Source of the DNA: Escherichia coli
Lineage (GTDB): Bacteria; Pseudomonadota; Gammaproteobacteria; Enterobacterales; Enterobacteriaceae
Direction: 5' to 3' (one strand)
Length of the DNA stretch: 64,000 nucleotides
NCBI RefSeq assembly: GCF_016026235.1
Contig: NZ_CP065613.1
Of this stretch, positions 36,708 through 39,298 are shown piece by piece; the first letter of the stretch is position 1, and every line of letters begins with the position of its first letter. The notes below the pieces were generated by a model, which did no database searches, was not told the origin of the DNA, and was given only the letters and a program-made list of their open reading frames with translations. A program made the position numbers and the translations under genes.

Positions 36708-37483
36708 TGATTGTTTTACCCAGACGCCTGTCAGACGAGGTTGCCGATCGTGTGCGGGCGCTGATTGATGAAAAAAACCTGGAAGCGGGCATGAAGTTGC
36801 CCGCTGAGCGCCAACTGGCGATGCAACTCGGCGTATCACGTAATTCACTGCGCGAGGCGCTGGCAAAACTGGTGAGCGAAGGCGTGCTGCTCAGTCGACG
36901 CGGCGGCGGGACGTTTATTCGCTGGCGTCATGACACATGGTCGGAGCAAAACATCGTCCAGCCGCTAAAAACGCTGATGGCCGATGATCCGGATTACAGT
37001 TTCGATATTCTGGAAGCCCGCTACGCCATTGAAGCCAGCACCGCATGGCATGCGGCAATGCGCGCCACACCTGGCGACAAAGAAAAGATTCAGCTTTGCT
37101 TTGAAGCAACGCTAAGTGAAGACCCGGATATCGCCTCACAAGCGGACGTTCGTTTTCATCTGGCGATTGCCGAAGCCTCACATAACATCGTGCTGCTGCA
37201 AACCATGCGCGGTTTCTTCGATGTCCTGCAATCCTCAGTGAAGCATAGCCGTCAGCGGATGTATCTGGTGCCACCGGTTTTTTCACAACTGACCGAACAA
37301 CATCAGGCTGTCATTGACGCCATTTTTGCTGGTGATGCCGACGGGGCGCGTAAAGCAATGATGGCGCACCTTAGTTTTGTTCACACCACCATGAAACGAT
37401 TCGATGAAGATCAGGCTCGCCACGCACGGATTACCCGCCTGCCCGGTGAGCATAATGAGCATTCGAGGGAGAAAAACGCATGA
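36707..37483 (+). CDS. lldR: GntR-family L-lactate operon regulator
   Basis: Start at the Met giving [20 protein letters not shown]… (258 aa), overlapping the lldP stop; GntR HTH plus FCD domain. Confidence 0.88.
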
Positions 37484-38670
37484 TTATTTCCGCAGCCAGC
37501 GATTATCGCGCCGCAGCGCAACGCATTCTGCCGCCGTTCCTGTTCCACTATATGGATGGTGGTGCATATTCTGAATACACGCTGCGCCGCAACGTGGAAG
37601 ATTTGTCAGAAGTGGCACTGCGCCAGCGTATTCTGAAAAACATGTCTGACTTAAGCTTGGAAACGACGCTGTTTAATGAGAAATTGTCGATGCCGGTAGC
37701 ACTGGCACCGGTGGGTTTGTGTGGCATGTATGCGCGTCGTGGCGAAGTTCAGGCAGCCAAAGCGGCGGACGCGCATGGCATTCCGTTTACTCTCTCGACG
37801 GTTTCCGTTTGCCCGATTGAAGAAGTCGCGCCAGCCATCAAGCGCCCAATGTGGTTCCAGCTTTATGTACTGCGCGATCGCGGCTTTATGCGTAACGCGC
37901 TGGAGCGAGCAAAAGCAGCGGGTTGTTCGACGCTGGTTTTCACCGTGGATATGCCGACACCGGGCGCACGCTACCGTGATGCGCATTCAGGTATGAGCGG
38001 CCCAAATGCGGCAATGCGCCGCTACTTGCAGGCGGTGACGCATCCGCAATGGGCGTGGGATGTGGGCCTGAACGGTCGTCCACATGATTTAGGTAATATC
38101 TCAGCTTATCTCGGCAAACCGACCGGACTGGAAGATTACATCGGCTGGCTGGGGAATAACTTCGATCCGTCCATCTCATGGAAAGACCTTGAGTGGATCC
38201 GCGATTTCTGGGATGGCCCGATGGTGATCAAAGGGATCCTCGATCCGGAAGATGCGCGCGATGCAGTACGTTTTGGTGCTGATGGAATTGTGGTTTCTAA
38301 CCACGGTGGCCGCCAGCTGGACGGTGTACTCTCTTCCGCTCGTGCGTTGCCCGCTATTGCAGATGCGGTGAAAGGTGATATCGCCATTCTGGCGGATAGC
38401 GGAATTCGTAACGGGCTTGATGTCGTGCGTATGATTGCGCTCGGTGCCGACACCGTACTGCTGGGTCGTGCTTTCCTGTATGCGCTGGCAACAGCGGGCC
38501 AGGCGGGTGTAGCTAACCTGCTAAATCTGATCGAGAAAGAGATGAAAGTGGCAATGACGCTGACTGGCGCGAAATCGATCAGTGAAATTACGCAAGATTC
38601 GCTGGTGCAGGGGCTGGGTAAAGAGTTGCCTACGGCACTGGCTCCGATGGCGAAAGGGAATGCGGCATAG
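37480..38670 (+). CDS. lldD: FMN-dependent L-lactate dehydrogenase
   Basis: 396-aa ORF of the alpha-hydroxy-acid oxidase family; overlaps the lldR stop. Confidence 0.92.
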
Positions 38671-38681
38671 TCGTTTGAGCC

Positions 38682-38775
38682 CCCTCACCCTAACCCTCTC
38701 CCTCAGGGAGCTGTCTCTTGATCAGATCTCCTGATCAAGAGACAGGGGGAGGGCCGGGGTGAGGGGAAAAGGCCG
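38682..38775. repeat. Compound GC-rich palindrome containing a 19/19 match to the IS50 (Tn5) inside-end sequence
   Basis: CCCCTCACCC…CTCAGGGAG-CTGTCTCTTGATCAGATCT-C-CTGATCAAGAGACAG-GGGGAGGGCCGGGGTGAGGGG: a 15-bp inverted repeat with a 5-bp spacer, nested in outer inverted repeats. Positions 38711-38729 equal the IS50 inside end as I recall it. Confidence 0.6.
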
Positions 38776-38824
38776 CACGGTTCACCAATTTTCTGCTATC
38801 CTGCCCCCGCACTAAGGGGGCAGT

Positions 38825-39298
38825 ATGCTAAACATCGTACTTTACGAACCAGAAATTCCGCCAAATACTGGCAACATCATCCGTCTTTGCGCTAATACCG
38901 GCTTTCGTCTGCATATCATCGAACCGATGGGATTTGCCTGGGACGATAAGCGCCTGCGCCGCGCGGGGCTGGACTATCACGAGTTTACCGCCGTTACGCG
39001 TCATCATGACTACAGCGCGTTCCTCGAAGCAGAAAATCCCCAGCGCCTGTTTGCCCTCACCACGAAAGGTACGCCTGCTCACAGCGCCGTAAGCTATCAG
39101 GATGGCGATTATCTGATGTTCGGCCCGGAAACACGCGGCCTGCCAGCGAGCATTCTTGATGCCCTGCCCGCTGAACAAAAAATTCGGATTCCGATGGTGC
39201 CAGACAGCCGCAGCATGAACCTGTCCAATGCGGTGTCGGTAGTGGTGTATGAAGCCTGGCGGCAGCTGGGATATCCGGGAGCGTTGTTGAGAGATTAG
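38825..39298 (+). CDS. trmL: tRNA (cytidine/uridine-2'-O)-methyltransferase, SpoU family
   Basis: 157-aa ORF of the SPOUT methyltransferase family; position matches trmL (yibK). Confidence 0.88.

What the first reader, a model, noticed from the sequence alone, without database searches (positions are those of the whole stretch)
38682..38775. Palindrome in the lldD–trmL spacer matching the IS50 (Tn5) inside end 19/19
Positions 38711-38729 read CTGTCTCTTGATCAGATCT, identical to the 19-bp IS50 inside end as I recall it, including its two GATC Dam sites. It is followed after one base by the inverted 15-mer CTGATCAAGAGACAG, giving a perfect 15-bp inverted repeat with a 5-bp spacer. This is nested inside GC-rich outer inverted repeats (CCCCTCACCC … GGGTGAGGGG). 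A 19-bp exact match is unlikely by chance. It could be an ancient chromosomal palindrome family that transposase ends resemble, a relic of two facing IS ends with the interior lost, or a MITE-like element. Any of these would be worth knowing; the structure might also act as a Dam-sensitive protein-binding site or transcription barrier between lldD and trmL.
Basis: partly seen in the sequence, partly recalled or inferred. Interest (0 to 1): 0.55.

Follow-up and report, generated by a model that had tools for sequence, protein, structure and literature searches.

The report
Collapsed ISEc13 insertion-sequence scar
The palindrome is the 35-bp leftover of ISEc13, a natural cousin of Tn5's IS50 with the same end sequence, which once jumped into a GC-rich hairpin repeat between lldD and trmL; it is a strain-variable scar, not a demonstrated functional site.

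Summary
Window 38711-38729 is 19/19 identical to the IS50 inside end. It starts a 35-bp palindrome (15-bp arms, 5-nt centre) nested in GC-rich inverted repeats.

The source is not IS50. Bases 1-33 of the palindrome are identical to the inside-end terminus of ISEc13, an IS4-family, IS50-subgroup element of Enterobacterales. Its transposase is 39% identical to Tn5 transposase. In ISEc13 these bases encode the last transposase codons (KSLDQEI-stop). The remaining AG matches the tip of the other end.

Deleting between the only two GTCTCTT copies in the 1539-bp element gives exactly this 35-mer.

The outer arms are truncated copies of the published triplex motifs TMECO 17 and 18 (Holder 2015). Intact ISEc13 relatives sit in the loops of such hairpins with 8-9 bp target duplications. 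One sits just downstream of an lldD homologue in the same orientation.

The palindrome allele occurs in 1132 of 5426 complete E. coli genomes. K-12 MG1655 lacks it, and strain EC2 has the same hairpin without it.

Identical 35-mers occur at 11 other loci in Serratia, Salmonella, Budvicia and Escherichia. None has a clean target duplication, so autonomous MITE-like mobility is unsupported.

Verdict: an IS relic. Interest is modest and comes from the link between this IS family and triplex-motif repeats.

The parts
37480..38670 (+). lldD coding sequence (context; stop codon TAG at 38668-38670)
   Evidence: ORF list. RefSeq annotation of identical or near-identical loci.
38681..38710 (.). Left outer arm, CCCCTCACCC-TAA-CCCTCTCCC-TCA-GGGAG. 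This is TMECO 17 (antisense copy) lacking the last 4 nt (AGGG) of its 3' stem. Its end, CTCAGGGAG (38702-38710), is the inferred 9-bp target of the IS insertion.
   Evidence: Identical to MG1655 up to GGGAG. The TMECO 17 sequence and its lldD-trmL location are in Holder 2015, Table 1 and Table S2. A Serratia relative has the same insertion register: TSD CCGCAGGAG followed by AGGG.
38711..38745 (.). 35-bp palindrome CTGTCTCTTGATCAG-ATCTC-CTGATCAAGAGACAG. It is the collapsed ISEc13 remnant and carries both element tips.
   Evidence: The simulated GTCTCTT-to-GTCTCTT deletion of the 1539-bp element gives this sequence. The exact 35-mer occurs at 11 other loci in 6 other taxa.
38711..38729 (+). 19-bp inside-end transposase-binding sequence. 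It is identical in IS50 and ISEc13, and its tip faces lldD.
38711..38743 (-). 33 nt identical to the inside-end terminus of ISEc13-family elements. On the minus strand this is the remnant of the transposase 3' end (..S-L-D-Q-E-I-stop; the TGA lies inside the terminal repeat).
   Evidence: Plasmid pJJ1886_5 and chromosomal ISEc13 copies. Family alignment of the last 100 nt. ORF translations end in KSLDQEI.
38744..38745 (.). AG, the two bases not found at this position in the intact IS (which has TT). They complete the second tip. The inference is that they derive from the outside-end tip (...GAGACAG).
   Evidence: IS copies read ...GAGACTT; relics read ...GAGACAG.. The origin of these two bases is an inference.
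38720..38736 (.). Three GATC (Dam) sites at 38720-23, 38725-28 and 38733-36, plus one BglII and two BclI sites.
   Evidence: Read directly. Any role is untested.
38746..38766 (.). Right outer arm, GGGGAGGG-CCG-GGGTGAGGGG. This is the 3' two-thirds of TMECO 18 (sense copy). The first 4 nt are variable among palindrome alleles (GGAG / GGGG / TGGG). GGAG duplicates the last 4 nt of the left flank and is a possible remnant of the target duplication.
   Evidence: Alignment A2 of six alleles. Holder 2015 Table 1.
38825..39298 (+). trmL coding sequence (context)
   Evidence: RefSeq annotation.

Best explanation
The palindrome is a non-coding scar of an ISEc13-type insertion sequence. ISEc13 belongs to the IS4 family, IS50 subgroup, and is about 1.5 kb long.

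Inferred history:
1. The lldD-trmL spacer carried a pair of GC-rich 'triplex-motif' hairpin repeats (TMECO 17/18), or their fused single-hairpin form.
2. An ISEc13-family element inserted into the hairpin loop region with its inside end towards lldD. This is the family's habitual target. The expected duplication is CTCAGGGAG.
3. The roughly 1.5-kb interior was then lost. The most likely route is slipped-strand deletion between the element's only two GTCTCTT copies, at position 3 of the outside end and 33 bp from the inside-end tip. This resembles 'nearly precise excision' of Tn10. It leaves CT plus the last 33 bp, which is the 35-mer.
4. Five of the nine duplicated target bases on the right were lost, and point changes followed.

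The 19/19 match to IS50 exists because IS50 and ISEc13 are homologous and share the inside-end binding site. The palindromic shape is intrinsic to ISEc13: the last transposase codons contain an inverted copy of the terminal 13 bp.

Status of each step. Shown: the sequence identities, the family's target habit, and the allelic series. Inferred: the order of events and the deletion mechanism. No present-day function is implied.
For: Identity
- 33 of 35 bases equal the ISEc13 inside-end terminus in pJJ1886_5, UPEC 536, Nissle, O157 and GF131 copies.
- The element is 1539 bp, with inside end CTGTCTCTTGATCAGATCT and outside end CTGTCTCTTATACACAAAT.
- Source databases name it ISEc13. It matches NCBIfam NF033590.
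- It hits Tn5 transposase in the PDB at E = 4e-43 and 2e-27 and is 38.5% identical overall.
- Its size and 8-9 bp duplications fit the IS50 subgroup as described in PMC2266710.

Collapse
- GTCTCTT occurs only at positions 3 and 1507 of the element. Deleting between the two copies reproduces the 35-mer.
- The last 35 nt and the first 16 nt are invariant in 8 family members with 69-96% transposase identity. Independent collapses in different genera would therefore give the same 35-mer.
- Exact copies were found at 10 loci in Serratia silvae (5), S. proteamaculans, Budvicia aquatica, Salmonella diarizonae and Escherichia sp. (2), plus one metagenome locus.

Target
- Intact relatives lie in loops of C-run/loop/G-run hairpins, mostly TM motifs. 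Their duplications are CCGCAGGAG, CCCCGCGGG, CCTTTGGGG, CCCTGTGGG, CCTGATAG, CCTTATAG and GGATAAGYA.
- One copy (L030) lies directly downstream of an lldD homologue, in a TM pair, with its inside end facing lldD.

Allelic series
- Strain EC2 has the hairpin without the palindrome.
- Strain 2018-166 equals EC2 plus 39 bp (the 35-mer plus a GGAG duplication).
- The window, ZF8-1 and Z0117 are point variants of that allele.
- MG1655 has TMECO 17, a 59-bp spacer and TMECO 18.
- The palindrome allele is in 1132 of 5426 genomes. Holder 2015 scored 10 of 56 strains at this locus as 'palindrome effect'.
Against: - No allele with an intact 9-bp duplication flanking the 35-mer exists among complete E. 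coli genomes. The best match to a synthetic version is 96.2% with a 5-nt gap.
- None of the 12 relic loci has a clean direct duplication.
- No E. coli allele with a full-length IS at this site was seen.
- The two bases AG could in principle come from the eroded target copy (CTC-AG-GGAG) rather than from the outside-end tip.
- In several Serratia and metagenome loci the right flank carries the loop of the left flank in inverted form (ACA/TGT, TGCGA/TCGCA). This fits a fold-back template switch at the inside-end hairpin better than simple slippage.
- In Salmonella, a full IS (L038) and a 35-mer (L018) share the same short flanks and junctions at non-orthologous loci, with opposite orientation of the centre. 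The simple in-situ model does not explain this.
Confidence: 0.8

Rival explanations
1. The 35-mer is an active miniature element (a 'micro-MITE'). It carries two inward-facing transposase-binding tips, and ISEc13-family (or Tn5) transposase excises and re-inserts it as a unit into hairpin loops.
For: It has both tips (CTG...CAG), no coding capacity, and identical copies at 12 loci in 7 taxa, including 5 in one Serratia silvae genome. Presence/absence alleles exist in E. coli. In Salmonella diarizonae an ~85-bp unit with the 35-mer at its centre interrupts one copy of a local direct repeat.
Against: None of the 12 loci has the 8-9 bp direct duplication that every well-preserved full-length insertion shows (versus 63, 81). 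The second tip matches the inside end at only 15/19 positions, and matches the outside end only over the first 9. The two 19-bp sites overlap on 35 bp of duplex, which by established knowledge of the Tn5 synaptic complex cannot be bent into a paired-end complex. E. coli shows only one locus. The invariant family termini explain identical copies without any mobility.
Confidence: 0.1
2. It is a scar of IS50/Tn5 itself, either natural or left by laboratory mini-Tn5 mutagenesis.
For: 19/19 identity to the IS50 inside end. Mini-Tn5 tools carry this end.
Against: Bases 20-33 follow ISEc13 (CCTGATCAAGAGAC), not IS50 (TGATCCCCTGCGCC). The allele is present in 1132 natural and laboratory genomes from many hosts, including E. 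coli B and O121:H19.
Confidence: 0.02
3. The palindrome is maintained because it works for the host. Possible roles are a Dam/SeqA-sensitive protein-binding site, or an RNA hairpin that ends or stabilises the lldPRD transcript and insulates trmL.
For: Three GATC sites lie within 17 bp. The RNA stem-loop is very stable: -68.3 kcal/mol, z = -5.6. The 35-mer is unmutated in all alleles inspected, while its immediate right flank varies.
Against: It is absent from about 79% of complete E. coli genomes, including K-12, O157 and B2 strains. These carry quite different spacers of 47-197 bp. No U-tract follows the hairpin, and no terminator or promoter consensus was found in either allele. There is no Rfam family match. 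Arm-to-arm correction of a perfect palindrome can explain its conservation.
Confidence: 0.05
4. After one or a few IS insertions and collapses, the 35-mer spread as a passenger of its host repeat (TM hairpins, or the Salmonella ~45-bp hairpin element). The spread would be by gene conversion or recombination between repeat copies, or by whatever mechanism disperses those repeats. It would not be by repeated IS insertion. This can coexist with the best explanation for the E. coli locus.
For: The 35-mer is always embedded in repeat arms. S. silvae loci L009 and L012 share both flanks (CCCTCTCCCAYAGGG | CTCCCTGTGGGAG). Salmonella L018 and L038 share identical junctions at non-orthologous loci. The absence of target duplications is expected under this model.
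Against: Junction positions differ among most loci (GGG|, GGGAG|, CCAC|, AGAC|, GGCT|). TM arms are so similar to one another that shared flanks are weak evidence. The mechanism of TM dispersal is itself unknown (Holder 2015).
Confidence: 0.15

Closest known systems
IS50 inside end (Tn5)
   Same: The 19-bp terminal sequence is identical, including the two Dam sites, and the transposase stop codon lies inside the end.
   Different: The sequence diverges from base 20 onwards. IS50 has only a 5-bp internal palindrome there, against 13 bp in ISEc13. No IS50 sequence is present in the window.
ISEc13 (IS4 family, IS50 subgroup; named in NCBI/ISfinder-derived annotation)
   Same: 33 of 35 bases equal its inside-end terminus. 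The tip dinucleotide of the other end is present. The site is a hairpin loop of the family's typical kind.
   Different: There is no transposase gene and 1504 bp are missing. The flanking duplication is reduced to 4 bp, or mutated as in the window.
'Nearly precise excision' remnants of Tn10 (Foster, Kleckner and co-workers 1981; from my own knowledge, not checked here)
   Same: A large element with inverted termini collapses by deletion between short direct repeats near its two ends. This leaves a short palindromic remnant made of both tips.
   Different: Tn10 remnants keep the 9-bp target duplication, and here it is eroded. The event here is inferred from sequence, not observed.
TMECO intrastrand triplex motifs 17 and 18 (Holder et al. 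2015, PMC4666352)
   Same: The outer arms 38681-38710 and 38746-38766 are these two motifs. The paper locates them between lldD and trmL and reports hypervariability, with a 'palindrome effect' class at this locus.
   Different: Both motifs are truncated in the window, so neither keeps the three segments needed for a triplex. The paper reports finding no transposase remnants near TMs and does not mention the 35-mer.
IS elements that target repeated extragenic palindromes (IS1397/ISKpn1 into REP/BIME loops; from my own knowledge)
   Same: An IS family with a strong preference for the loop of a dispersed chromosomal hairpin repeat.
   Different: The IS family differs (IS3 versus IS4/IS50), and so does the repeat family (REP versus TM). 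The preference shown here rests on about 10 sites, not on experiments.
MITEs
   Same: Short and non-coding, with termini of a known IS, and with multiple copies in some genomes.
   Different: It is far shorter than described MITEs, its two binding sites overlap, and no target duplications were found.

Membership tests
IS50 / Tn5 (the element itself) | 19-bp inside end CTGTCTCTTGATCAGATCT | tested here: met
   19/19 against the annotated IS50L-aph(3')-IIa junction.
IS50 / Tn5 (the element itself) | Continuity with the IS50 interior beyond the end (TGATCCCCTGCGCC..., transposase C-terminus ..AQGIKI) | tested here: not met
   The window continues CCTGATCAAGAGAC (..KSLDQEI in ISEc13).
ISEc13-family relic | Identity to the inside-end terminus beyond the generic 19-mer | tested here: met
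   33/33 identical to 8 family members.
ISEc13-family relic | Transposase gene of the IS50 subgroup between the ends | tested here: not met
   Only 35 bp are present, so this is a relic, not an element. The parental transposase was verified elsewhere.
ISEc13-family relic | 8-9 bp direct target duplication | tested here: not met
   Only GGAG (4 bp) is duplicated in the 2018-166 allele, and it is mutated to GGGG in the window. No intact-duplication allele exists in 5426 genomes.
ISEc13-family relic | Insertion in the family's usual target (loop of a C-run/loop/G-run hairpin, typically a TM motif) | tested here: met
   The left junction CTCAGGGAG|IE lies in the TMECO 17 hairpin. This is the same register as Serratia L027.
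MITE | Terminal inverted repeats matching a parental IS, and no coding capacity | tested here: met
MITE | Target duplications of the parental type at independent copies | tested here: not met
   0 of 12 loci.
MITE | Several copies per genome | tested here: inconclusive
   One locus is known in E. coli. There are 5 in S. silvae and 2 in Escherichia sp. MOD1-EC7003. E. coli was not exhaustively screened for 35-mers in other flanks.
MITE | Mobilisation by the parental transposase | not testable with these tools
   Needs a transposition assay.
TMECO triplex motif (outer arms) | Sequence identity to the published motif copies at this locus | tested here: met
   The arms equal TMECO 17 and 18 of Table 1, and Table S2 places both between lldD and trmL.
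TMECO triplex motif (outer arms) | All three segments present (pyrimidine stem plus two purine segments) | tested here: not met
   The TMECO 17 copy lacks the end of its GGGAGAGGG segment. The TMECO 18 copy lacks its CCCTCGCCCC segment and loop.
Intrinsic terminator / known RNA family | GC-rich stem followed by a U-tract, or an Rfam match at the gathering score | tested here: not met
   No U-tract is present. There is only a weak 5-bp-stem consensus hit inside the left arm. Rfam hits are all far below gathering scores.

The most novel reading that the evidence does not exclude
ISEc13-family (IS50-subgroup) transposases may specifically integrate into the loops of the dispersed GC-rich triplex-motif hairpins of Enterobacterales. 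Cycles of insertion followed by deterministic collapse to a 35-bp two-tip palindrome would then be a major, previously unrecognised cause of the hypervariability reported at these loci. The 35-mer, with a perfect Tn5 inside end, might remain a substrate for Tn5-type transposases.
Probability: 0.3. Interest if true: 0.6.

Novelty: new member of a known kind. Interest (0 to 1): 0.4.

Why it matters
1. It explains a striking coincidence. A perfect Tn5 inside end in wild E. coli chromosomes is ordinary transposon archaeology. The end sequences of the IS50 subgroup are almost frozen: inside end 19/19 and outside end 18/19, at only 39% protein identity.

2. It links a specific IS family to the triplex-motif repeats. 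Holder et al. (2015) reported that these loci are hypervariable, gave no mechanism, and explicitly found no transposase remnants. Here about 10 independent insertions of the family sit in such hairpin loops, and one 'palindrome effect' allele contains an IS scar. This makes an IS-driven contribution to that instability directly testable.

3. It has a practical side. About a fifth of E. coli strains, including B-type laboratory strains, carry a chromosomal Tn5-type end with three Dam sites. Tn5-based assays and primers that anneal to the I end could hit it.

Tried and rejected
- IS50/Tn5 origin was rejected by the sequence beyond base 19.
- Chance match was rejected.
- Known RNA family or terminator: nothing in Rfam above noise, and no U-tract.
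- Literature: the palindrome's centre (GATCAGATCTCCTGATC) appears in no paper of the library. ISEc13 is only listed in catalogues. Reznikoff 2004 on Tn5 transposase homologues (PMC532410) is not held.
- Empty sites for the two Escherichia sp. loci in E. coli genomes: no orthologous uninterrupted site could be aligned.
- A full-length IS allele at lldD-trmL in E. coli: the partial-match hits H36 and H37 turned out to be the short 47-bp spacer allele.
- An allele with an intact 9-bp duplication: none found.
- Whether other 'palindrome effect' TM loci also hold the 35-mer: TMECO 12/13 (alx-sstT) is a plain direct-repeat deletion.
- Salmonella L018 versus L038 looked like the same site with relic versus full IS. 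The loci are not orthologous, and only about 21 + 25 nt of flank are shared.
- The fold-back template-switch model predicts a right flank that is the reverse complement of the left flank. This holds partly in L012 and L023 but not in the window.
- I could not list every ISEc13 copy in multi-copy strains such as E2348/69 (up to 32 places).
- I could not screen E. coli exhaustively for 35-mers in other flanks.

Full report
**Observation.** The window reads CTGTCTCTTGATCAGATCT at 38711-38729, C at 38730 and CTGATCAAGAGACAG at 38731-38745. This is a perfect 15-bp inverted repeat with a 5-nt centre. It lies inside a GC-rich imperfect inverted repeat, 38681-38703 / 38744-38766. The region sits between the lldD stop (38670) and the trmL start (38825). 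The 19-mer is unique in the window, and about 0.01 matches are expected even with three mismatches allowed. I checked the recalled IS50 inside end on an annotated natural plasmid. There the 'IS50R family transposase' gene of IS50L ends ...GGGATCAAGATCTGATCAAGAGACAG, directly followed by the aph(3')-IIa leader. The match is therefore a true 19/19. OE and ME sequences in PMC3347997 and Tn5-derived primers agree with this.

**What the core is.** A search of 5426 complete E. coli genomes showed that the spacer is polymorphic. It also showed that part of the query matched annotated 'IS4 family transposase' pseudogenes on plasmids and chromosomes. In pJJ1886_5, UPEC 536, Nissle 1917, O157:H7 and strain GF131, the sequence CTGTCTCTTGATCAGATCTCCTGATCAAGAGAC is the terminus of a 1.5-kb element. 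The other end of that element is CTGTCTCTTATACACAAAT. On the opposite strand these bases encode the transposase C-terminus K-S-L-D-Q-E-I-stop.

The transposase fragments hit Tn5 transposase structures at E = 4e-43 and 2e-27. An intact 457-aa version (P0001) is 38.5% identical to the IS50 transposase. It matches NCBIfam NF033590, and source databases call it ISEc13. Its length and 8-9 bp duplications fit the IS50 subgroup as defined in PMC2266710.

So 33 of the 35 palindrome bases are contiguous ISEc13 sequence. IS50 itself diverges after base 19 (TGATCCCC). That excludes Tn5 as the source.

**How 35 bp can be left.** In the 1539-bp element the heptamer GTCTCTT occurs exactly twice: at position 3 of the outside end and 33 bp from the inside-end tip. 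Deleting between the two copies produces the 35-mer, including the terminal AG that the intact IS lacks at that position (it has TT). This parallels what I recall of Tn10 'nearly precise excision'. It is an inference, not an observation.

The last 35 nt and the first 16 nt of the element are invariant in eight family members with 69-96% transposase identity, while neighbouring codons vary. Independent collapses in different genera would therefore give identical products.

An exact-match scan of one genome per species found the 35-mer at ten loci:
- Serratia silvae: 5 loci
- S. proteamaculans: 1
- Budvicia aquatica: 1
- Salmonella enterica subsp. diarizonae: 1
- Escherichia sp. MOD1-EC7003: 2

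A metagenome scan added one more locus.

**What the outer arms are.** The arms are the published intrastrand 'triplex motifs' TMECO 17 (antisense) and TMECO 18 (sense) of Holder et al. 2015. That paper lists both between lldD and trmL. In MG1655 the two complete motifs are separated by 59 bp, and there is no palindrome. In the window both motifs are truncated on their inner sides.

Holder et al. reported that TM loci are hypervariable with an unknown mechanism. They stated that they never found transposase remnants near them. Their Table S3 scores 10 of 56 strains at TMECO 17/18 as 'palindrome effect'. That is close to the 1132 of 5426 genomes (21%) that carry the palindrome here. They appear to have read this allele as a deletion. 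The 35-mer sequence occurs neither in their text or supplements nor anywhere in the searchable library.

**Target habit of the IS family.** Intact relatives were retrieved with their flanks. Every informative site is the loop of a C-run/loop/G-run hairpin, and most are TM motifs. The duplications are centred on the loop:

| Source | Target duplication |
|---|---|
| Serratia sp. D1N4 | CCGCAGGAG |
| Unnamed Enterobacterales genome with at least 5 copies | CCCCGCGGG and CCTTTGGGG |
| S. fonticola | CCCTGTGGG |
| ISEc13 proper | CCTGATAG, CCTTATAG and GGATAAGYA |

One copy (L030) lies immediately downstream of an lldD homologue, inside a TM pair, with its inside end facing lldD. That is the position and orientation of the window's relic. 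TM motifs cover roughly 0.02% of an E. coli genome (23 motifs of about 36 bp), so this clustering is far from random.

**Allelic series in E. coli.** Searches give the following series:
- **EC2:** the fused single hairpin ...CCCTCAGGGAGAGGGCCGGGG..., without the palindrome.
- **2018-166:** EC2 plus 39 bp (the 35-mer plus a second GGAG).
- **ZF8-1, the window and Z0117:** these differ only in the 4 nt right of the 35-mer (TGGG, GGGG, and GGGG with a 1-nt deletion).

The left junction CTCAGGGAG|IE is in the same register as the Serratia insertion. A canonical event would have duplicated CTCAGGGAG, but the right copy lacks CTCAG. That loss is possible by slippage between the CAG of the tip and the CAG of the duplicate. 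No allele with the intact duplication exists among complete genomes, and no allele with a full IS at this site was found. Fusion of a TM pair by direct-repeat deletion does occur independently at TMECO 12/13, without any 35-mer.

**What remains unexplained.**
- None of the 12 relic loci has a clean direct duplication.
- In several loci the side abutting the 19/19 inside end looks like a canonical target (CCCNNNGGG|). The other flank carries the same loop in inverted form (ACA/TGT in L012, TGCGA/TCGCA in L023). This suggests hairpin-templated correction, or a fold-back template switch at the inside-end hairpin, rather than simple slippage.
- In Salmonella, a full-length IS (L038) and a 35-mer (L018) share about 21 + 25 nt of flank and identical junctions. 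Yet they lie at non-orthologous loci and have opposite orientations of the centre. The 35-mer there sits in an ~85-bp unit that interrupts one copy of a local direct repeat.

These facts keep two options open. One is spread as a passenger of host repeats. The other, with low probability, is trans-mobilisation.

**Function.** As RNA, the region folds into a very stable stem-loop (-68.3 kcal/mol, z = -5.6). As DNA the value is -34.2 kcal/mol. No U-tract follows the hairpin. No promoter or terminator consensus was found in this or the MG1655 allele. No Rfam family matches. The allele is absent from most E. coli. I found no evidence for a host function. Three clustered Dam sites are simply inherited from the IS end and its inverted copy.

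**Verdict.** The interpretation 'relic of two facing IS ends' is right in kind but wrong in attribution: the source is ISEc13, not IS50. The feature is a new, apparently undescribed member of a known kind (an IS scar). Modest extra interest comes from the newly visible preference of this IS family for triplex-motif hairpins.

Noticed in passing
window 38798-38826: The hairpin ATCCTGCCCCC-GCACTAA-GGGGGCAGTAT overlaps the trmL start codon (ATG at 38825). It is invariant in all spacer alleles aligned, even those that lack every other part of the spacer. It could be a translational or stability element of trmL.
   Followed up: no
RefSeq records NZ_CP026085.1 and NZ_CM135829.1: Two genomes labelled 'DH5alpha' (4.83 Mb) carry the palindrome allele and match the window 100% over 341 bp. 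Genuine K-12 (MG1655) has the TM-pair allele without the palindrome. Their size and allele suggest that these records are not K-12 derivatives.
   Followed up: partly
L027-L032, L038-L046: ISEc13-family elements insert in the loops of GC-rich hairpins (triplex motifs), with 8-9 bp duplications centred on the loop. I did not find this target preference described in the searchable literature.
   Followed up: yes
L018:2000-2650 (Salmonella enterica subsp. diarizonae): An ~85-bp unit (21-nt arm + 35-mer + 25-nt arm) interrupts one copy of a ~60-bp direct repeat (tcccctctcaccgccatcttaaagaaagag.tcgtacgaaagtacgggctttttt). The second copy of that repeat, about 250 bp downstream, is uninterrupted. The same arms flank a full-length IS at a non-orthologous locus in subsp. 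salamae (L038).
   Followed up: partly
L041:422-440; L019: The outside end of ISEc13 (CTGTCTCTTATACACAAGT in the E. fergusonii copy) is 18/19 identical to the IS50 outside end and 17/19 to the engineered hyperactive mosaic end. The proteins are only 39% identical.
   Followed up: partly
L033 versus L019/L006: The same flank (catggtgaatcYccctgtgcgg) abuts the outside end in one ISEc13 copy and the inside end in another. Several copies lack matching duplications. This is evidence of recombination or inversion between IS copies.
   Followed up: no
L049:600-700 versus L050 (alx-sstT spacer): The TMECO 12/13 pair is fused into a single hairpin in many strains by deletion between the CCCTCTCCC repeats of the two motifs. 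A third allele (L051) has an unrelated ~290-bp GC-rich replacement.
   Followed up: partly
L019:400-470 and (outside-end region of all family members): Just inside the outside end, every family member has a GC-rich hairpin (for example ACAAATCCCCCCGGGGATTTGT). Its stem sequence varies between members but its pairing is kept. This could be a conserved structural feature upstream of the transposase start.
   Followed up: no
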